A stretch of 64,000 nucleotides of DNA, taken from the NCBI RefSeq assembly GCF_009914755.1, contig NC_060925.1, one strand, 5' to 3'. The notes beneath the pieces are model-generated. The model had not been told where the DNA came from. It saw only the letters and a list, made by a program, of their open reading frames with translations, and searched no databases. The stretch is from the human T2T-CHM13v2.0 reference genome, Homo sapiens. Below, one piece after another: positions 4,362-64,000 of this stretch. The translations under genes were made by a program, and so were the position numbers. Every line of letters begins with the position of its first letter. Within the stretch, counting starts at the first letter, position 1.

Positions 4362-5178
4362 ACCCATCGCCTTTTTGATTGTCTTCCTCAGCCTGGACCA
4401 CCAACAGTGGTTCCACTACCTGGCATATGCTAGAGTTTTGACTGTTCACACCCCTTCTATACACAATTGGTAACTTGATGGATTTGGCTATGATGCCCAC
4501 CCACTCTTCACTTCCTTCCCACCAAATTCCTATCCTGCTGATTTGCTTTTCATTTCCATCTTTCAAACTACTTCTAAAATCCTGTTTCTTTTAAGAGGGC
4601 TTCCCAAATGATCACAAGGAAAATGACTATGCCTCAAATCACAAACTACTCAAACTTCCAAACACCATTTCCCCTGACATCACATCCAACATATATCATT
4701 CATCTGTTGGTAATTTATTATTTAATGTTAATTGTATCAGCAAATGTGCTCTGTAATCATTTGGACCATTGTGCCTGTCTCAGGTTATAAACCTCTGTAG
4801 AAAGTGACCATCTGTGCACTTAGCCAGGTAATGTGGAGGTAAATATGAAGAAAGGGGGCCTTTGATTCCTCCATGGAATCTTGTGACCCAGTATGAGGGG
4901 CTCCCTTCGATGGCAATCAGACATCTGCCTGATGATGACCTGACAGCTATTCTGCTGGTTTTTCACTTTCCAGCTAGGGAAGCGAGCATGAGGTGCAATC
5001 TCTAGAAATTCTGCCTGGGGGCTTAGCATTGAAGAGGCTTCCCCACGCACCCATGGAGAACCAGTTCTAGAGTAATTCATTCATGCCCCACAGGAAAGCA
5101 CAGGTAGAATGGCACTGTCACATACATGGTGGCTTTGCAAGAACTGTCCACCGTGGGCAGGAGGGATGCAGCACTCAC

Positions 5179-5277
5179 CAGGCCGCACAGACTGCACCAG
5201 AACAATGCGATCCCCACTGACTGTGAAGCCGAAGCCATGCTGGTCCTTTTGGATAATGACACAGCGTTGAACGAGAC
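5179..5277 (-). CDS. ARHGEF11: ARHGEF11 coding exon 3 (99 nt), start of PDZ domain: (G)LVQRCVIIQKDQHGFGFTVSGDRIVLVQSVRP(G)
   Basis: Acceptor CTTTCTCTCCGCCTTCCAG| and donor CTG|GTGAGT. Contains the PDZ GFGF carboxylate-binding loop. Confidence 0.98.
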
Positions 5278-5800
5278 CTGGAAGGCGGAGAGAAAGGTTG
5301 AGTACGCAGTGTCACTGGGAGGTTAGTGTACACATGCCAAGACCAACCCAGGGAAGCCCCAGTGCCTTTCTTCTTCAAGAAGCCTTTTCACACTAAACAA
5401 ATTCCCTAGACTATTCCTGTCTAAACACTATTGCAATGACACGCCTCCCTTGGTGGTTGGCAAAACCTATAACTTAACTTTGTATTCCAAATAAGAAACT
5501 ACCCTTCTCTGAGGTGCTAAAATGCTTGTCTCTCACAAACATGTCTGTCCCTTTTGGTGTGCCCGGGTGAGACTGGTCAAAGAAGGGGTAGGACCAGGTC
5601 TAGCCATCCTCCTGAAGACTAATATTACCAATAAGGAGCCTCCCAGGATTGAAGCCCAAGTGAGCCTAGAAGTTACATGTTAAGTGACATCCAATGAATG
5701 CAGCAAGTGGTATACCAATGCTTGTTGATTCTTTTTATAGAGCTGGATAACTCATGCAGGGTGACTTAGGAGTGGTCTCTTGCCAAATCTAGGGAAGGAC

Positions 5801-5859
5801 ACATGACAAGAAGAAAACCCTTTTATTTCTGAAATAAAAGGGTTTTCTTCTTGTCATGT
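5801..5859. repeat. Perfect inverted repeat (29-bp arms, 1-nt spacer)
   Basis: ACATGACAAGAAGAAAACCCTTTTATTTC-T-GAAATAAAAGGGTTTTCTTCTTGTCATGT. Confidence 0.97.
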
Positions 5860-6134
5860 ATCCTTTAAAAAAATACAGAATTAAAAAACAAAAAGAAACA
5901 GAGGTTATCACTACCAAATGTCTCCATTCCTGTGAGTGTATACTAGACATCGTACATGTGTATGAGTATGTGTGATTGCATCCTGCAATGATTAAAGCGT
6001 GGGTTCTAGAGTTAAAACAGAACTGGTTTCAAGTCCCCAGTAAGCTTGCGAACTTGGACATATTTCTTAACCTCTCTGTGCCTCAGCTCCCTCATTTGCA
6101 AAATAAAGATAATAAAACCTAGTTTCTATGTTGA

Positions 6135-6889
<755 letters not shown>

Positions 6890-6921
6890 TGTTTTTGTAT
6901 GTTAATGCCCAAGGAGGTTAC

Positions 6922-7013
6922 CTGTTGTCTCAGAGGCATCCGAAGGCTGGCGATGGTGGGAAGGGGACTTGCGCTCTGGTGCAGAATCTCCCAGAGAAGA
7001 CAGGCTACTTAAC
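6922..7013 (-). CDS. ARHGEF11: ARHGEF11 coding exon 2 (92 nt): (R)LSSLSSLGDSAPERKSPSHHRQPSDASETT(G)
   Basis: Acceptor CCTTACTCCTTCTCCAG|GTTAAG and donor CAG|GTAACC. Phase 2 in, phase 1 out, in frame with the next exon. Confidence 0.96.
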
Positions 7014-7338
7014 CTGGAGAAGGAGTAAGGAAAGCATGTCAATGAGCTCAGCAGGGGGGATCAGCCTTGTAGTAGATGGAGGCTCTGTCAAAAGGGGCCC
7101 TGAGTCTTGGATAATGAGAGACCAACCTACCCGCCCTGTAACCCAATCTGGTAGGACATTAGCCATGTGTACACCACTGGTAACACCACCTATCTGGAAT
7201 CCTGGGCTGGCAGGGCAAGCATGATCTCTTTAATACCCAGCAAGGTGTGAAGGGAAATAACCCTTCCTGGAGTTAGGCGACAAAGAGACAATAGCAAGAA
7301 GGGGATGTGCACACGTGTACATGCTTGTTGGGTCTTAC

Positions 7339-7353
7339 CAGGCTGCAATGGGG
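7339..7353 (-). CDS. ARHGEF11: Alternative microexon (15 nt) in intron 1: (S)PIAA(W)
   Basis: Branch point ACTAAC (7423-7428), AG-free pyrimidine tract with UGC motifs, CATCAG| acceptor, CTG|GTAAGA donor. 15 nt and open in phase 2. Confidence 0.8.
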
Positions 7354-8039
7354 CTGATGGAACAGAACGGAGCAGCAGAGAAAATGAATGCAAGAAAAAG
7401 ACAGGGAAAAAACAAACAGCCAGTTAGTTTTAGGCAATGATTTGCAAAGGAAGGGGAGACTGGAGGGAAGGACGAGGTGGGTCAAACACATACAGAGGTC
7501 TGCATGAGCACAACATGTGGCTGTAGTGGTGGCAGCAGAGACAAGCTCCCCATTTAGCTTCATCTCTTTGTCCCTCAAAGTTCCACCTCTCCATAACAGT
7601 GATCTCCAGGAGGGTAAATGGGCATGAGTATAAGCCCGCTGGGTAACTGGCAACTTGCACACTTTCTAGAAAAGACAGTAGAGGAACGGCCCAAGCCTTT
7701 GAAAATTCCATTTATCCTTTGGGTACCATGGGAGGACAGGAATCTGGTCTGTTTGGCGGTAGTATTCCAACCCCATATTCAGCTCCAGTCCCTCAGCCAG
7801 CCTGAGGCACCTCGCCTAATTAGAAACTACTAAAGACCCCAAACCTTCAAGTGGTACACATCACCAAACCAAAGGATTCACTGCTTCATCTCCTCTTCAA
7901 CTAGGACCCTCACAGGAATAGAAGAAATTTCAATAACTGCTGTGGCACTCCTTTTTGGAAAAGTGTACAAGTTGCAAGTTCCTGAATCAATAGTTGCTGC
8001 CCCTCAGAAAGGGGCAATTCCTATCCTACCTATAGCAAA

Positions 8040-8495
8040 AGACTAAGTAGAAGGCTACTCATGGAAGCACTGTGTGTGATGGCAAAGCACTGGAAATAAT
8101 CTAAATGTTCACAATGAGTGACTGGTTAAATAAATTACAGTAATACAATGACACAGAACTCAGTCATAAGAAAGAATGAAGAGGCTCTTTATACATGATA
8201 CAGAATATCTCCATGATATGTTACTGAGTGAAATAAACAAAATATAGAATTATTTGGACAGTTTAAAAAAGTGAGTAAAGGAGAGAATAAAATTATGTGT
8301 TTATATATGTTTAAATATTTATTTACATATCCAAAAATATCTAAAATATCTCTGGAAGAATACAAAAGAAACATATAACACAGTTGTCTCTGAGGAGGGA
8401 AACTGGGTGGCTGGGGCACAGGAATGGAAATGCAGGCTTTTATTATATTCTTTGGTACTTTTAATGTTTGAAACCATGTGAGGGTACAAGTAACT
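8040..8495 (+). mobile_element. Old L1M (ME-like) 3' fragment
   Basis: Degenerate L1 3'UTR motifs (CTAAATGTTCACAAT, TTAAATAAATTACAGTA, AAGAATGAAG, TATGTTACTGAGTGAAA). Confidence 0.6.
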
Positions 8496-8549
8496 TATAA
8501 ATATAAAGGAGTGGGTCTTCGTTCCCCCTCACAATGGCACCCCTCTTAC

Positions 8550-8582
8550 CTGGACAGGTGAGACTGCTTTTTACTGGCTGAT
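8550..8582 (-). CDS. ARHGEF11: Alternative cassette exon (33 nt) in intron 1: (R)SASKKQSHLS(R/S)
   Basis: About 119-nt AG-free pyrimidine-rich tract (8585-8703), AAG| acceptor, CAG|GTAAGA donor. 33 nt and open in the phase-2 frame required by exon 2. Confidence 0.8.
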
Positions 8583-11500
8583 CTTTGGATCAGAGAGAGA
8601 AGGACATCAAGGAAGAAGAGAGCGTGGGCCCAGGAGAGAGCAACGCAGGACAGGAGGAAGAAAGAGAAAGAAAAACAAAACACGACATAAACCAGACAAG
8701 ACACTAGGGATGGTTGGTTCGAAGAAAAACCACAACAGAGCCAAGAGTGACCCAGGGGAGGCACCTGGCCACAAGGTGAGCTTACTAACAGCCATCAGCT
8801 TTCTAACATCCAAATTTACCCATGTCATTTTGCTGCTTAAAACCTTTTAGAACCTCCCCACTGTACTTGGGAGAACAGTCATCTGGCCTCAGCTAGGCCA
8901 TTCGCCACAGCATCTAACAGGAAGTATAATGCCTGATGCCCGGGGAAGTGCCCTTTGATGTTTTCCACAGCTCCCAGTATCTGTCCTTCCTGCAGCTCAA
9001 ATACCCAACTGAAAATGCGCTGTTCACTTGTCTGTAAAGCCGTACAGACAGGCAAGGTTGGAAGGTCCATGAAAGCAGAGAGGGTCTTGCTGCTGTGTCC
9101 CCAGTGCCTGACGCAATAGGGAGGGGCTCAGTCCTATTCTTGGTCCCTGCTCTTTACTGTCCTCCTTTCACTTGCTATGGTTTCTGGCTTCTGTCTCTGC
9201 CTATACTGTTCCTTCCTCCTACATGTTCTGCCTACTTTATTCTCTATGACTGCACAGGGCTATCCACGCTGGGCTTGAACTCCTCCTCCTTCCTACCTAA
9301 AGAGAAAGCCCATCTTATCTTGGGACACCTCGGGCCTTCTTGCCTTGTTCTTGACCCCACCAGGAAGCTGGTTTCCTATGCCCATATTAAAGCCTAGAAG
9401 GTGCATCTGAACCTGAGAACCTGATTTGGTTTGCATTTGAGCTGAGGCATGAGCAGTTCCACATAATCAAAGGCAAATGAACCAAAAGGTCCATGTCCCT
9501 GCTGTCAACAATTGTTAGGGGCATGGACAAAGACCATTTCAGCAGTAACCAAAAGTTTCTCTAAAATAAAATCAGAGGCTAGGGCAGGTATGTGGGGGAC
9601 AAGGAGATGGCAACGTAAGTATACTTGCAACAGATGCAAAAAAAATTTTTTTTTCTGAGAGCTTAAAGGAGAGAAAACTACCATTGAACTGAAGGAGGAA
9701 GAAATGCCTATGGAAGGCAGGCCTGGTGGATAGAATCAATGGACAGACTATTGTGTCAGCTGGGTTGTGAGTCTGAGCACATATTTGGGAGGAAGACCTT
9801 GGAAGGTTAAAAATCTGAGAAACAAGGAAAGGAGAGAGGAGGGTAGTTTGGCCTGAAATGGAGGCTGTCATAGATAGAAAAGATTTTAATGGTGGCCCCT
9901 CCCTTTTCCTGAGGACATTCTCATCAAAATTTGGCAGCAGAGCTCAGATTCTGCTCAGCCTAAACCTGGGGGTATGGAGGCGGCCCTGAGGAGTGGAGAA
10001 TTTCCCCCCAAATTTGTACTCTAAATGGCACCACTGAGACAGATTTTCTGACCCAACTTCTCAGTTATCCCCTACTGCCAGTCAAAGAAACCTTTAGGTT
10101 CTTTATAATCGTTTCCCAGACTCGCTCCTTTCTTTACATAATCATTGACACTCATCCCTTGAAGCCACATGTCTAGTGCCTCATGCCTGGATTACTGAAA
10201 AAAACCTCTTTTCCACTCTCCAGTCCATCCAGCACTCCACCACCACAGACTAACTTACTCAAATACTACTCCCTCAGGCCCTCTCATCAAGAACTTATCA
10301 TTTCTCTCCTTATTATCTACACAATCAGATGTGCCTCCAATAACTTGGTATTAAAGGACTTTCATCCTGTGGACCCAAACGTCTTTTCAAATTCGTCTCT
10401 GATTACTTGCCTACTACCTACCTCTACTGGATCCTAAGCGATGCTATACTCATTCCCACCTCTGACTTGATGGTTGCCATCCCTTGTCATCTCTGTCCAT
10501 CTCCTACTACTTTTTCAAGGTCCTGATCAAATGGCATTGACTCCACAAAGCAATCCCTGACCACTGCAGCACACATTTCATTTACCCCAACATTTTATTT
10601 TGAAAAAGGTCAAACTACATTAACATTGAAGAAGTAGCATGGTGAATATCTACATGCCCTTCATTTAGATTCAGCAACTAACATTTGTAACATTTGCTTT
10701 ATCTATGTTTATACATTTTTTCTCACTTGAAAATTGTAGACATCATGACACTTTACCCCTATTTTAGCCTATATCCCCTAAGAGCATTGAAATTCTTCTG
10801 TATAACCACAATGCCATCAGCACACCCAATGAGTCTGATACAATATTATCTAATATACAGTACACATTCAAATTTCCCCAACTGTCTTATTAAGTTCTTT
10901 GTAGCTATTCCCCAATTGCCTCAGTTCAGGAGCCAATCAAAGATCTCGAATTATACTTACGTCCTGTCTCTCAGATTAATTTGATCTAGAACTCTCCCTA
11001 CTTTTCTTGGTCTTGTCTCTCATAACACTGACATTTTGCAGAGTCTAGGCCAGTAATCTTGTTGAATGTCCTACAATCTGGATTCATCTGATGCCTCCTC
11101 ACAGTTAGATTCATGTTAAACATTTTTAAGAGACTATTATATAAGTGATGTTGGATAGCTTGCCCCATTTTGGTGACGGTAGGTTTGATTACTCAGGTAA
11201 AGTGGTATTCCTGAGATTTTTTCAATGGTAAAAATCTATTTTCTCATTTGAATTAATGAGAAATCTGTGGGATGATATTTTGAGACTGCATAGATACTCT
11301 GTTTTCCAACAATCTCTCATCCAATAGTTTTACTATCCATAGATGATTCTTGCCTAAAGCGCTTATTGCACTGGTGCCTGCAAAATGGCAATTTGCTAAT
11401 TCTATCATTCCTTCAACATATATTAGCCAGTAAGCTTTTATAAAGAATGTCATCTCATCCCTTTTCTGGAGTAGTGCTATGAACTCACAGATCCTGTTTC

Positions 11501-15719: not shown

Positions 15720-16330
15720 CACCTTCACTGACACCTCAAAGCTACAACAGTCAAACTGCAATCAATCTCCCCAGCCCTGCTCCTGATCAAATGTTTCCTC
15801 CTCAGTAAAACACTGCCGTGCACTTGCTCACGCCAGAAATCTGAGATTATCTTTGACATCTCTCTGCAAATCCAATCAATTGACAAGTCCTACTGATATG
15901 ACCTCCTAACATTTCTGAAATCCACCTACTTCTCTTCTCCCCCTCTCTGCCACCACGCTCATTTAAGAGACCATCATCTCTCACCTAGAAGAACTGGCCT
16001 CCCCATGTCTACTCTAGCCCCTACCCATTCTTACACACAGAGTGATCTTTTAAAGAGAGAAATTAGAGGATATACACCCTTCCGTGGTTTCCCACTGTCC
16101 TTGCATGAAGTTCCAAATCCTGCACATGGCTAGCAGGTCCTTGGGTGAGGTCTCATGCCTATTCTCAAGCTGTGTATCTGGTCACCCTCCCTCTCACTCA
16201 CTGTATTTCAACCTCAGGGGCTTTCTCTCCCCACCTTGGCCTGGGGAACCCACACTCATTCCTCAGCGTTCAGCTTAAGTGTCCCTTTCTCAGAGAGGCC
16301 TTCTCTGACACTTAATGTGTTGAGTTTCCC
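15720..16330 (+). mobile_element. L2 fragment
   Basis: L2 motifs (AAATCCAATCAAT, CCATCATCTCTCACCTAG, AGAGTGATCTTTTAAA, TCAGAGAGGCCTTCTCTGAC). Confidence 0.65.
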
Positions 16331-27112: not shown

Positions 27113-29062
27113 CACACGTCACAAATTTAAAAGACTAGATAGCCAAAGAGAAAGTGGAGCTATCCAAGATGGAATCACACAATCATATGGGCTAAGAATC
27201 GGAGGGCCAGTTTAATTAGATGACTGCCAAGATTCCTTCCAATCCTGAAGTTGACTCTGATTTGAAGACAGAGTGGGACTGTGAGAGGGAGTGAGAGACC
27301 TAGGATGTATTCCACCAAAAGCACCGTAATCATAGGGTAGAAATGGGTAGAATCTAGTTTCTCTCTTTCCTGGGCTTAGAAAAAAAGGGTTCTGAGGACA
27401 AGAAGAGAATTGCTCTCTGATCCTGTGTGCCCTCTGGTGCAGCAGACAGCTCTGGCCTGGGGCTCAATACTTTGGTTCTTGGTAACAGCATGGGAAGTCA
27501 GGCAGATCTGGCTTTCCAGACAATTGGATAGGGCTCAGGTCAGAAAGGCAGAGACTGAGAAAAGTTTCACCATCTGCTGGCACCTCCTTCCCTGGATCAC
27601 ACTGAACCTTTAACGATTTGACTGGTATGTGATGCCACCCCCATAATACACTAAGTGTAATGTGCCAGGAGCCTGAGCCAGAAGATGAAGGGCCCCAGTG
27701 AAGCACCCTGAGAACAGCAGCATGAGCTCTGTGCCACAGGCCTAGTGAGGGGTGGCTCCTGCAGGGCCAGGCTGGCTAAGGTTGGTAGCCCTTTCTAACT
27801 GACTTGTGTCAGAATCTCTCCCCTCAAGGGTTCTGCATGCTCAGGCAGCACAGAGTTAGGGGGAGGCGGCAGAGGTACCAGGACATGACTGACTGGGTAA
27901 ATGAAGAGAACTCCTCACCTGTGTCACACCTGTTCTCCACATACATTTCAGGGTACAAGGGAATGACAGGATGGAAAGGAGGAGAAAAAACAGGAGAGTT
28001 AGAGATAGAATAAATACAGACATGAGATGAAAAAACAAAAACAAAGAAGTAGGAGGAAATGTGGAAGTTACAAAAGAAAGGGAAGAGCAAGAGAATGAGA
28101 GAATAAAATGGCTGGGGATAGATGGTTATATGGAAAGATGTGGAAAAAGGAAAGAGAAACCAGCAAAAGAGAGTAAGAAGCATTGAAAAGGGGAGAAAGG
28201 GCATCACAGTATTTAAACATCAGATTGTCTCAGGGGTTGGTACAGATTCTAAGCCAGCCAGACTTCCCAGACTCAGGCAGTACTGGCAGCAGGGGTGTTC
28301 AATGGAACTTCTTATTACAGTCCTTAGGCTGAGATTTATAAAAGGGCTGTGAAATCATTAATTAGTGTAGAGTGTCTGGCACAAAACAGAATGATGGGGT
28401 TGTGCGGCGGGGGGAGGAGTATGTGCACACAGAAGTGAGTTGTCAGCATCTGGGAGGAAGAACAAGGCTACCGTACGATTTTTGGTTAAGGTGCTTTCCC
28501 TAGCAGGGTCTCAGTTTCCAATCTGGCCACACAGAATTAAACATTCTCTCTCCCTTCTTGACACAAATACCACCTAAGGTGATCTTTTCTCTGACCGCCT
28601 TATCTAAAATTGCAATCCCACATTCCTGATACTTCCTGTTCTGTCTCTGTAACCATATTATCTAATACACAGTAATATCTAACAAATAACTTTCTTATTT
28701 AATTTGTTTAGAATGTAATGTAAGCTCCAAGAAGGCAAAGGTTTTTTTTTTTTTGTTTTTTTTTTTTTGTCTCTTTTGTTCTCTGTTACAGCTCCAATGT
28801 TTACAACAGTTCAGTTCCTGGAACACCGTAGATGCTCCAAAAATGCTTATTAAATAAAAGAATAAGCCTAACTGCCTAACTCTATTTAAACCTAGCCCTA
28901 TTCAGTTCTCAGTTGCCCAAGAAAATGTAGAGGGAAACATTTCATATAACTCGAACTCGAAAATAATGCAAATCTACATCTCACAGAATTATAAATGATA
29001 AAGGCTAGAAAGAATCTCAACACTCTCATTTCACAGACAAGGAAACTAAGGACTACAGCCTT

Positions 29063-57650: not shown

Positions 57651-58065
<415 letters not shown>

Positions 58066-63465: not shown

Positions 63466-64000
63466 TGCTGGGCAAATCCTGAGATTTTTATCTATGAGGA
63501 TATCCAAACCCCCAGGAGTGTCTCACATCAACCCAGGAAGGCTCACCGCCTCCTCCTTCTTGCACGCCCCCAAAACTTGGGTTCCCATCTTCTCAAATCC
63601 TTGCATTTACCAGAAAGAGTTCACCATCCAAATCTTAAAAAGGCAAGTGCACTAATTCTCAAACTCCAAGAGGATGAAAAGGGAAGAAGGGCAGCCATGT
63701 AAACCATTCCAATTCCTCACCTTGACACACCTCAGTTCTCCCTTTCCAAGGGTCAAACTGCAGAGAGGCCAACAGAAAGGAGGAAGGAGGTCTGAACTGG
63801 CCGTACATCCTTTGTGGCTGTCTGCCTCCTCTTCTCCACTGCCAAGTCAGTTCCCATCTAGGGACTGCTGAACTAATCTAAATGGGACTCTGAGGCAATA
63901 CAGAGATTAGTGCTTGAGAGAGAGAGATTATATGCATTTTAGGCCACATTCCACAACCAAAAGGAAATTATTATTAGCATGGATAACCGAAGGTGGACTG

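What the first reader, a model, noticed from the sequence alone, without database searches (positions are those of the whole stretch)
7339..8582. Tandem frame-preserving microexon switch (33 nt + 15 nt) remodelling the N-terminus of PDZ-RhoGEF
Seen in sequence: exon 2 begins in phase 2 (G|TTA AGT AGC). Two tiny cassettes upstream have lengths that are multiples of 3, are open in exactly that phase, and each has a GTAAGA donor and a long AG-free pyrimidine tract. From knowledge, the canonical human protein reads MSVRLPQSIDR-LSSLSS. Inference: four N-termini are possible: DR-LSS, DRSASKKQSHLSR-LSS, DSPIAAW-LSS and DRSASKKQSHLSSPIAAW-LSS. From memory (unverified), the rat brain form GTRAP48 begins ...IDRSASKKQSHLSSPIASWLSSLSS, which would mean both cassettes are conserved and co-included in brain. 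This would be a combinatorial, probably neural, module just ahead of the plexin-B/LPA-receptor-binding PDZ domain. It may already appear in minor annotated transcripts.
Basis: partly seen in the sequence, partly recalled or inferred. Interest (0 to 1): 0.85.

Follow-up and report, generated by a model that had tools for sequence, protein, structure and literature searches.

The report
Two annotated ARHGEF11 N-terminal microexons
Two tiny optional coding exons (33 and 15 bases) near the start of the human ARHGEF11 gene are real and conserved, but they already sit in predicted public gene models, so this is an ordinary and still untested case of alternative splicing.

Summary
On the minus strand, window 8582..8550 (33 nt) and 7353..7339 (15 nt) are frame-preserving cassettes. 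Both are open in the phase left by exon 1 (…GAC AG|), and each has a GTAAGA donor and an AG-free pyrimidine tract over 100 nt long.

They are not new. RefSeq's own T2T annotation carries both as coding exons in 11 of 26 ARHGEF11 mRNA models: 7 with both, 3 with the 33-nt one only, 1 with the 15-nt one only. All 11 are Gnomon predictions; none of the 4 curated NM_ transcripts has either.

Weddell-seal ARHGEF11 fragments encode the same 16 inserted residues, 16 of 16 identical.

The 15-nt exon has the layout of an SRRM3/4-type neural microexon: distal CTAAC, UCUCU, then three UGC before the AG. The 33-nt exon has a weak acceptor behind a UCUCUCUCU tract and no nearby UGC.

Brain specificity and the recalled rat GTRAP48 N-terminus could not be tested.

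The paralogue ARHGEF12 has a 24-nt exon at the same position and phase. It also has a known NOVA2-regulated exon just before its PDZ domain.

Verdict: real, already annotated, function unstudied; modest interest.

The parts
8550..8582 (-). Cassette A: a 33-nt frame-preserving alternative coding exon. It adds SASKKQSHLS and regenerates the split codon as R (AG|A at its 5' end; AG|G when joined to exon 2) or S (AG|C when joined to cassette B).
   Evidence: Sequence. Coding exon in 10 of 26 RefSeq ARHGEF11 mRNA models, all XM_. Identical peptide in seal P0003 and P0004.
8544..8549 (-). Donor of cassette A, GTAAGA. The 9-mer CAG|GTAAGA scores 9.8 bits, the 65th percentile of 272 control donors. 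If the intron is read through, an in-frame TAA follows at once.
8585..8703 (-). AG-free tract of 119 nt, 79% pyrimidine, upstream of A. It holds UCUCUCUCU at -18 to -10. UGC occurs only at -65 and -60. The acceptor ...GATCCAAAG| is weak (4.6 bits, 8th percentile).
7339..7353 (-). Cassette B: a 15-nt frame-preserving alternative coding exon. It adds PIAA plus two split codons, S (AG|C) and W (TG|G), giving SPIAAW.
   Evidence: Sequence. Coding exon in 8 of 26 RefSeq models, all XM_. Identical peptide in seal P0004.
7333..7338 (-). Donor of cassette B, GTAAGA. The 9-mer CTG|GTAAGA scores 7.7 bits, the 32nd percentile.
7356..7459 (-). AG-free tract of 104 nt, 76% pyrimidine, upstream of B. It holds a consensus branch-site-like CTAAC at 7427..7423 (-74), UCUCU at -28, and UGC at -39, -24 and -21 (7377..7372). 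The acceptor scores 11.2 bits (42nd percentile).
   Evidence: Motif layout compared with the bipartite UCUC...UGC enhancer described in bioRxiv 10.1101/2024.09.17.613571 (passages).
6922..7013 (-). Constitutive exon 2 (92 nt), the common acceptor of all four splice paths. Its first G completes the split codon. It encodes LSSLSSLGDSAPERKSPSHHRQPSDASETT, which leads into the PDZ exon (5277..5179).

Best explanation
These are two genuine, conserved alternative cassette exons of ARHGEF11 (PDZ-RhoGEF). They lie 1.5 kb and 0.3 kb upstream of exon 2, at the 3' end of intron 1 (56.5 kb from exon 1 to cassette A).

Exon 1 and cassette A both end in the dinucleotide AG in the same phase. Both cassette lengths are multiples of three. 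Any of the four splice paths therefore keeps the reading frame. The only changes are 0, 5, 11 or 16 inserted residues and the identity of the junction residue (R or S). The change falls in the segment between the start codon and the PDZ domain. I take that segment to be disordered, by analogy with the paralogue; this was not measured.

Shown:
- The anatomy of the exons.
- Their annotation in predicted models.
- Peptide identity in a carnivore.
- The unusual acceptor architecture.

Inferred:
- Cassette B (15 nt) is recognised through the microexon route, in which SRRM3/4 binds UGC between a distal branch point and the AG. That would make it mainly neuronal or neuroendocrine.
- Cassette A (33 nt) has a weak AAAG acceptor behind a CU-repeat and no proximal UGC. 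It is more likely held down by a CU-binding repressor of the PTBP type, or controlled by another factor. The two cassettes can therefore be used independently.
- The protein effect is a change in charge and phosphorylatable residues next to the PDZ domain. A adds a net charge of +3 and four Ser/Thr. B creates a Ser-Pro and adds a Trp.
For: - Anatomy and frame.
- All four combinations are in RefSeq Gnomon models. Of 26 models, 7 have A+B, 3 have A only, 1 has B only and 15 have neither.
- Seal fragments P0004 and P0003: the 16 inserted residues are 16 of 16 identical to human. The neighbouring exon-2-encoded stretch differs at 7 of 31 aligned columns (Fisher P = 0.078). Whatever evidence those models rest on, the seal genome must encode both peptides between usable splice sites.
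- AG-exclusion zones of 119 and 104 nt, against a median of 27 and a 95th percentile of 59 in 240 controls. The 5 sequence decoys have 12-41 nt.
- B has CTAAC at -74, UCUCU at -28 and 3 UGC within -40..-4. Only 12 of 240 controls have 3 or more. This matches the published signature: distal branch point and pyrimidine tract, and a bipartite UCUC...UGC enhancer (bioRxiv 10.1101/2024.09.17.613571, passages).
- A has an acceptor at the 8th percentile, a donor at the 65th percentile, and UCUCUCUCU at -18 to -10.
- Charge and Ser/Thr counts.
- No solved structure covers this segment. All 4 matching PDB sequences start at GLVQRC.
Against: - I could see no expression or junction evidence. Inclusion level and tissue pattern are unknown here.
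- None of the 4 curated NM_ transcripts includes either exon.
- Conservation is shown for a single species and through predicted protein models. Among the six hits, the only bird fragment that starts at the Met (P0005) lacks both cassettes, although it is an ab-initio 'hypothetical protein'.
- UGC near an acceptor is common: 153 of 240 controls have at least one within -40..-4.
- B's donor is only at the 32nd percentile, not the strong donor said to be typical of microexons.
- A, at 33 nt and with no proximal UGC, does not fit the SRRM3/4 signature.
- B has 8 YCAY in the 200 nt upstream, against 3.4 expected. NOVA control is therefore an equally open option.
- The protein-level effect is pure inference. 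A test of one idea, that B extends an amphipathic helix, was negative.
Confidence: 0.7

Rival explanations
1. The cassettes are low-level splicing noise or annotation carry-over. Gnomon built them from sparse reads or from cross-species protein alignments, and they have no function.
For: - They appear only in XM_ predicted models and in none of the 4 curated NM_ transcripts.
- No paper main text mentions them.
- Splice-site scores plus an open frame alone also pick out 5 decoys in the same intron.
Against: - The inserted residues are 16 of 16 identical in seal, while the adjacent constitutive exon 2 differs at 7 of 31 columns.
- Both cassettes sit behind AG-free pyrimidine tracts over 100 nt long, which only 10 inter-AG gaps in the intron reach.
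- They lie in unique, non-repeat sequence.
- The paralogue keeps a microexon at the same position from human to a salmonid fish.
Confidence: 0.1
2. The exons are real and regulated, but not by the SRRM3/4 neural microexon programme. They might be set by NOVA, as for the paralogue's pre-PDZ exon, or by PTBP, RBFOX or MBNL. Their main tissues might be endothelium, muscle or endocrine cells rather than neurons.
For: - ARHGEF12 exon 4, in the disordered stretch next to its PDZ domain, is reported as NOVA2-regulated (PMC10178952 table; PMC12221596 table).
- YCAY in the 200 nt upstream: 8 before B (3.4 expected, Poisson P = 0.023) and 7 before the 57-nt ARHGEF12 exon (3.1 expected).
- A has no proximal UGC and a CU-repeat at its acceptor.
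Against: - B has the full distal-branch-point, UCUC and UGC layout and is 15 nt long.
- The YCAY excess is modest, and no dense cluster was seen downstream of either cassette.
Confidence: 0.25
3. The two cassettes are not an independent combinatorial pair. They are mostly included or skipped together, so that in practice there are two forms (none, and A+B).
For: Of the 11 RefSeq models with any cassette, 7 have both. The two exons are only 1.2 kb apart.
Against: A-only models (3) and a B-only model (1) exist in human, and an A-only model exists in seal. The two acceptors have different motif content. Counts of models are not counts of transcripts.
Confidence: 0.3

Closest known systems
SRRM3/4 (eMIC)-dependent neural microexons
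   Same: Cassette B is 15 nt and frame-preserving. It lies in a segment next to a binding domain. It has a long AG-exclusion zone with a distal branch-site-like CTAAC, and UCUCU followed by UGC motifs before the AG (signature as described in bioRxiv 10.1101/2024.09.17.613571, passages).
   Different: Neural inclusion and SRRM3/4 dependence were not tested. B's donor is only average (32nd percentile). Cassette A, at 33 nt, exceeds the 3-27 nt size given for microexons in a search-listing abstract (PMC7935315) and has no UGC within 40 nt of its AG.
ARHGEF12 (LARG) small exons ahead of its PDZ domain: the 24-nt second coding exon and the NOVA2-regulated exon 4
   Same: ARHGEF12 exon 1 also has 10 codons plus AG. 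After a 68.9-kb intron comes a 24-nt exon in the same phase. It also ends in AG|GTAAG, has an acceptor at the 8th percentile, and encodes a KK core (FPLKKPI in human, FSKKAT in a salmonid). It sits 1.6 kb before the next exon. In ARHGEF11 the distances are 56.5 kb and 1.5 kb. A 57-nt frame-preserving exon with a 139-nt AG-free tract lies directly before the PDZ exon. It fits the published NOVA2-regulated 'exon 4 ... contiguous to the PDZ domain' (PMC10178952; PMC12221596).
   Different: Sequence similarity of cassette A to the 24-nt exon is limited to (S)KK, too short to prove paralogy. No counterpart of cassette B was found in ARHGEF12. No counterpart of the 57-nt exon was found in ARHGEF11 intron 2: 1 weak candidate, alignment score 7. 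Equating the 57-nt exon with the papers' 'exon 4' is my own exon count, because I had no chr11 annotation.
ARHGEF11 exon 37/38, the ESRP-regulated epithelial/mesenchymal switch
   Same: It is in the same gene, and it is a frame-preserving cassette that changes a binding property without touching the catalytic domains (PMC6371790, passages).
   Different: That exon is near the C-terminus, is regulated by ESRP1/2 and has a demonstrated function (PAK4 binding, tight junctions). The N-terminal cassettes are not mentioned in the passages I read (0 hits for 'N-terminal').
   Same: Two very short frame-preserving cassettes close together give four protein forms.
   Different: There the inserts lie in folded extracellular domains and are known to set ligand choice. 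Here they lie in an unstructured cytoplasmic N-terminus, and no partner is known to depend on them.

Membership tests
Annotated alternative coding exons of ARHGEF11 | Present as a coding exon in a public transcript model | tested here: met
   A is in 10 and B in 8 of 26 RefSeq T2T mRNA models. All are Gnomon XM_; 0 of the 4 curated NM_ transcripts has either.
SRRM3/4-dependent neural microexon | Length 3-27 nt and a multiple of three | tested here: met
   Met for B (15 nt). Not met for A (33 nt).. The size range comes from a search-listing abstract (PMC7935315).
SRRM3/4-dependent neural microexon | UGC motif between the branch point and the 3' AG, with an upstream UCUC element | tested here: met
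   B has UCUCU at -28 and UGC at -39, -24 and -21. Only 12 of 240 controls have 3 or more UGC in -40..-4. A has 0 UGC in -40..-4, so the feature is not met for A.; definition.
SRRM3/4-dependent neural microexon | Branch point and pyrimidine tract far from the AG (long AG-exclusion zone) | tested here: met
   119 nt for A and 104 nt for B, against a median of 27 and a 95th percentile of 59 in 240 controls. B has CTAAC at -74.
SRRM3/4-dependent neural microexon | Stronger-than-average 5' splice site | tested here: inconclusive
   A is at the 65th and B at the 32nd percentile of 272 control donors, using a home-made weight matrix rather than MaxEnt.
SRRM3/4-dependent neural microexon | Neural or endocrine-restricted inclusion that depends on SRRM3/4 | not testable with these tools
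   Reads are off for this job. No paper main text links ARHGEF11 to microexons or SRRM4 at this site. Supplementary tables are closed.
SRRM3/4-dependent neural microexon | Deep conservation among vertebrates | tested here: inconclusive
   Identical in one carnivore. The only bird fragment that starts at the Met (P0005) lacks them, but it is an ab-initio model. Full-length orthologues could not be reached.
PTBP-repressed exon | CU-rich or UCUU-type tract at the acceptor | tested here: met
   A has UCUCUCUCU at -18 to -10 within a 79% pyrimidine tract. This resemblance is common among acceptors and is not specific.
PTBP-repressed exon | Inclusion rises when PTBP1 falls | not testable with these tools
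   The 25 listed of 27 papers holding both Arhgef11 and Ptbp1 were, by title and abstract, about EMT, cancer or unrelated topics. I opened only PMC13589949 (in the earlier).
Paralogue of the ARHGEF12 24-nt second coding exon | Same intron position and phase after a homologous first coding exon | tested here: met
   Both first exons have 10 codons plus AG. Both small exons start in the same phase, end in AG|GTAAG, and lie 1.5-1.6 kb before the next exon at the end of a 56-69 kb intron.
Paralogue of the ARHGEF12 24-nt second coding exon | Recognisable sequence similarity | tested here: inconclusive
   Only (S)KK is shared: SASKKQS against FPLKKPI in human and FSKKAT in Hucho. In the ARHGEF12 5' region the best score to cassette A among 239 candidate frames went to a different exon, the 57-nt one (19), which is in another phase.

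The most novel reading that the evidence does not exclude
A microexon directly after the first coding exon is an ancestral feature of the PDZ-containing RGS-RhoGEFs and predates the ARHGEF11/ARHGEF12 split. Both genes have kept regulated splicing of the short stretch ahead of the PDZ domain as a control point. In ARHGEF11, the basic Ser-rich insert (A) and the Ser-Pro/Trp insert (B) would form a cell-type-specific phospho-switch. That switch would tune how the PDZ domain engages plexin-B or LPA-receptor tails in neurons.
Probability: 0.12. Interest if true: 0.5.

Novelty: already known. Interest (0 to 1): 0.3.

Why it matters
ARHGEF11 couples plexin-B and G12/13-linked receptors to RhoA. The passages I read also tie it to dendritic spine biology and to glutamate-transporter regulation in rat brain (PMC5297702).

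Published ARHGEF11 splicing work that I could find concerns only the C-terminal exon 37/38. If the N-terminal cassettes are abundant in neurons, studies that use the curated cDNA, which carries neither cassette, would be using a form that neurons may not mainly make. The same holds for the solved PDZ structures, which start after the insertion point.

The practical value is a reminder to check which N-terminus is expressed. The parallel with ARHGEF12 suggests that the pre-PDZ stretch is a regulated handle in both genes. It is not a new kind of element.

Tried and rejected
1. Full-length orthologues, including rat GTRAP48. These were unreachable. The protein word search admits only hits of 0.55-1.75 times the query length, no ARHGEF11 coding exon exceeds 363 nt, and a spliced query may not be typed. 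All three searches therefore returned only fragments of 74-118 aa. In those searches 15, 21 and 71 candidates were left out as sample-only.

2. Splice-site strength plus open frame as proof of reality. Rejected, because 5 decoys pass the same cut-offs.

3. The idea that cassette B extends an amphipathic helix with LSSLSSL. The best 11-residue helical moment is no higher with B (0.56-0.74) and lies elsewhere in the peptide. Dropped.

4. A counterpart of the ARHGEF12 57-nt exon in ARHGEF11 intron 2. One weak candidate, alignment score 7. Rejected.

5. A possible unannotated exon after the long AG-free tract at window 28228..27937. The acceptor scores -8.7 bits. Rejected.

6. Literature. There was no main-text mention of these exons:
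   - 'arhgef11' + 'microexon': 1 paper, an irrelevant review.
   - 'arhgef11' + 'micro-exon': 0 papers.
   - 'arhgef11' + 'srrm4': 5 papers, all ESRP or unrelated.
   - 'arhgef11' + 'ptbp1': 27 papers, 25 listed, none on this by title or abstract.
   - 'gtrap48': 12 papers (passages read in PMC5297702 only).
   - 'pdz-rhogef' + 'splice variant': 40 papers, 30 listed.
   - 'pdzrhogef' + 'splic': 25 papers (passages read in PMC12718393 and PMC3496707; irrelevant).
   - The VastDB-term search listed 40 of 136 papers, none of them holding 'arhgef11'.
   - The cassette-A peptide: 0 papers.
   Microexon catalogues are usually in supplementary tables, which were closed, so these blanks do not show that the exons are unpublished.

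7. Rfam scan of window 5000-10000. It found only the annotated 7SL pseudogene.

8. ORF and tandem-repeat scans of window 7000-9000 added nothing.
Full report
**What is there.**

ARHGEF11 runs on the minus strand across the whole window. Exon 2 (7013..6922) begins G|TTA AGT AGC, so it needs two bases from the exon before it. The first coding exon lies outside the window. I fetched it from the same reference as L001. It reads ATG AGT GTA AGG TTA CCC CAG AGT ATA GAC AG|gtaggt, that is MSVRLPQSID plus the dinucleotide AG. An alternative first coding exon (MPVDAK plus AG) ends in the same phase.

Cassette A (8582..8550, 33 nt) reads A|TCA GCC AGT AAA AAG CAG TCT CAC CTG TCC AG|gtaaga. Cassette B (7353..7339, 15 nt) reads C|CCC ATT GCA GCC TG|gtaaga. 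Exon 1 and cassette A both end in AG and both cassette lengths are multiples of three, so every path keeps the frame. The split codon becomes R before A (AGA) or before exon 2 (AGG), and S before B (AGC).

**Already annotated.**

The annotation file for this assembly lists 26 ARHGEF11 mRNAs:
- 7 carry both cassettes (XM_054339780, -781, -783, -784, -788, -789, -792).
- 3 carry A only (-782, -786, -794).
- 1 carries B only (-785).
- 15 carry neither, including all 4 curated NM_ transcripts.

The combinatorial set is already in the public gene models, though only as predictions.

**Is the sequence pattern more than chance?**

I built donor and acceptor weight matrices from curated internal exons of 26 other chr1 genes: 253 distinct acceptors and 272 donors.

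| Site | Score (bits) | Percentile of controls |
|---|---|---|
| A acceptor | 4.6 | 8th |
| A donor | 9.8 | 65th |
| B acceptor | 11.2 | 42nd |
| B donor | 7.7 | 32nd |

I then scanned the in-window part of intron 1 for AG...GT segments of 51 nt or less that pass the weaker of these scores on each side. This gave 19 segments. Seven have a length divisible by three, and all seven are open in the right phase. A and B therefore have five decoys, several of them Alu-like. Splice sites and an open frame do not single the cassettes out.

The acceptor architecture does. The AG-free stretch upstream is 119 nt (79% pyrimidine) for A and 104 nt (76%) for B. For 240 control acceptors the median is 27 nt and the 95th percentile is 59 nt. 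Only 10 of the inter-AG gaps in the intron (4354 AG dinucleotides counted) reach 100 nt, and the five decoys have 12-41 nt. In the intron, 57 of 4353 AGs (1.3%) are followed by an open in-phase cassette with a donor as good as B's, against 2 of the 10 long tracts (binomial P about 7e-3; cut-offs chosen after seeing the data). Neither cassette overlaps a masked repeat or a tandem repeat.

**Conservation.**

Its length window (0.55-1.75 times the query) and the ban on typed spliced sequences made full-length orthologues unreachable. I therefore queried with the stop-free genomic stretch around the first PDZ exon (76 aa). Six of six scored candidates passed.

Two are Weddell-seal "ARHGEF11-like" fragments:
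- P0004 (91 aa) reads MSVRLPQSIDRSASKKQSHLSSPIAAWLSS..., so it has both cassettes.
- P0003 (86 aa) reads ...SHLSRLSS..., so it has A only.

Aligned with the human forms, the 16 inserted residues are 16 of 16 identical and exon 1 is identical. The exon-2-encoded stretch differs at 7 of 31 columns (Fisher P = 0.078). Whatever evidence those predicted models rest on, the seal genome must encode both peptides between usable splice sites.

Among these six hits, the only bird fragment that starts at the Met (P0005) has neither cassette, but it is an ab-initio "hypothetical protein". The other three hits lack the N-terminus. Searching again with P0004 found the same six.

**Likely regulation (inferred).**

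A recent preprint summarises the signature of SRRM3/4-dependent microexons (bioRxiv 10.1101/2024.09.17.613571, passages):
- strong 5' splice sites;
- a strong pyrimidine tract and branch point placed far from the AG;
- a bipartite UCUC...UGC enhancer in the space between;
- UGC between branch point and AG in 74-79% of such exons.

Cassette B fits this well. It has CTAAC at -74, UCUCU at -28, and UGC at -39, -24 and -21. Three or more UGC within -40..-4 occur in only 12 of 240 controls. Its donor is only average.

Cassette A does not fit. It is 33 nt long, has no UGC within 40 nt of the AG, and has a UCUCUCUCU run at -18 to -10 just before a weak AAAG acceptor. That looks more like a site for a CU-binding repressor of the PTBP type.

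B also has 8 YCAY in the 200 nt upstream, against 3.4 expected. NOVA control therefore cannot be set aside. None of this is evidence of tissue pattern, and read data were not available.

**Protein consequence (inferred).**

The inserts fall 30 residues before GLVQRC, where the PDZ domain begins. All 4 PDB sequences that match (5e6p_B, 5tyt_A, 2dls_A, and 2omj_A for the paralogue) start at that point, so nothing solved covers the segment. In a fragment with a complete domain start, Pfam places the PDZ domain from just after that motif.

Counted from the start codon to the PDZ exon, the effects are:
- A raises the net charge from 0 to +3 and adds four Ser/Thr.
- B alone changes the junction Arg to Ser, creates a Ser-Pro and adds a Trp.

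A plausible reading is a change in phosphorylation or docking next to the PDZ domain. I have no test of it. The one structural idea I could compute, an amphipathic helix through B, was not supported.

**The paralogue.**

In ARHGEF12 (chr11) the first coding exon also has 10 codons plus AG (MSGTQSTITD). After 68.9 kb comes a 24-nt exon, G|TTT CCC CTC AAA AAA CCT ATA AG|gtaagt. It is in the same phase, ends in the same AG carry, has an acceptor at the 8th percentile and a donor at the 87th. It lies 1.6 kb before the next exon, of 86 nt. In ARHGEF11 the corresponding distances are 56.5 kb and 1.5 kb.

A salmonid ARHGEF12 fragment (P0008) reads ...PER-FSKKAT-R-TPSIL..., so this small exon is conserved to teleosts. 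Another fish fragment (P0011) lacks it. The shared (S)KK core with SASKKQS is too short to prove common origin. Position, phase and layout do agree.

ARHGEF12 also has a 57-nt frame-preserving exon directly before its PDZ exon. It encodes (D)SSSKKTKSSSEESRSEIY and sits behind a 139-nt AG-free tract. A cobra fragment (P0010) contains its peptide. By my exon count this is "exon 4". Two papers list that exon as NOVA2-regulated, and one describes it as lying in a disordered region contiguous to the PDZ domain (PMC10178952, table passages; PMC12221596, table passage). Regulated splicing of the pre-PDZ stretch is thus already documented in the sister gene.

**Literature.**

Across nine searches aimed at ARHGEF11 I found no main-text mention of the N-terminal ARHGEF11 cassettes. 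The tenth search was on ARHGEF12. The ARHGEF11 splicing papers I opened deal with the ESRP-regulated exon 37 near the C-terminus (PMC6371790, passages; a review). Supplementary tables, where microexon catalogues live, were closed. One older paper on PDZ-RhoGEF in neurons is not held.

**Verdict.**

They are already in RefSeq predicted models, so the sequence feature is known. What is missing is any measurement of where they are used and what they change. The neural reading is reasonable for the 15-nt exon and weak for the 33-nt exon. The parallel with ARHGEF12 is the most interesting by-product. Interest is modest.

Noticed in passing
window 6592-6889 (minus strand): A full-length 7SL RNA copy lies in the sense orientation of ARHGEF11, starting 33 nt downstream of the exon 2 donor. 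It matches Rfam Metazoa_SRP at 188.5 bits over model positions 1-299 of 299. It is annotated as the pseudogene RN7SL612P. Whether it affects splicing of exon 2 was not examined.
   Followed up: partly
window 27937-28228 (minus strand): Two adjoining AG-free pyrimidine-rich stretches (115 and 175 nt, 75-79% pyrimidine) are followed, 16 nt after the next AG, by a very strong donor (CAG|GTGAGG, 94th percentile). The acceptor context itself scores -8.7 bits, so an exon there is unlikely.
   Followed up: yes
window 57812-57859, 16202-16240, 63731-63757 (minus strand): Five decoy cassettes pass the same splice-site and open-frame cut-offs as the real ones. Two overlap in an Alu-like sequence. One lies inside the annotated non-coding alternative first exon 63721-63873. 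None is annotated as a coding exon.
   Followed up: partly
L030 about 5011-5111 (chr11:120444511-120444611): The first PDZ exon of ARHGEF12 appears to end at a GC donor (...GTC AAA GAA G|gcaagg). The protein fragments continue ...VKE-D-GAAMRAG from the next exon, so this looks like a GC-AG intron.
   Followed up: partly
L029 (chr11:120431496-120431581): ARHGEF12's 86-nt third coding exon is clearly real by similarity to fish proteins (E = 1.6e-4). Yet its acceptor scores -2.5 bits and its donor 4.4 bits on my matrices. It would have been missed by splice-site scoring alone, which is a caution for the decoy scan.
   Followed up: yes
P0007 (Tachysurus ichikawai ARHGEF12 partial, 74 aa): This database fragment repeats the first-PDZ-exon peptide twice in tandem (GLVQRC...LVKE, then again). 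It looks like an assembly or annotation artefact.
   Followed up: no
L001 3216-3235 (chr1:156183216-156183235, minus strand): The alternative first coding exon (MPVDAK plus AG), used by NM_001377418 and two XM_ models, ends in the same phase and with the same AG as exon 1. No model joins it to either cassette. Its donor is weak (7th percentile).
   Followed up: partly
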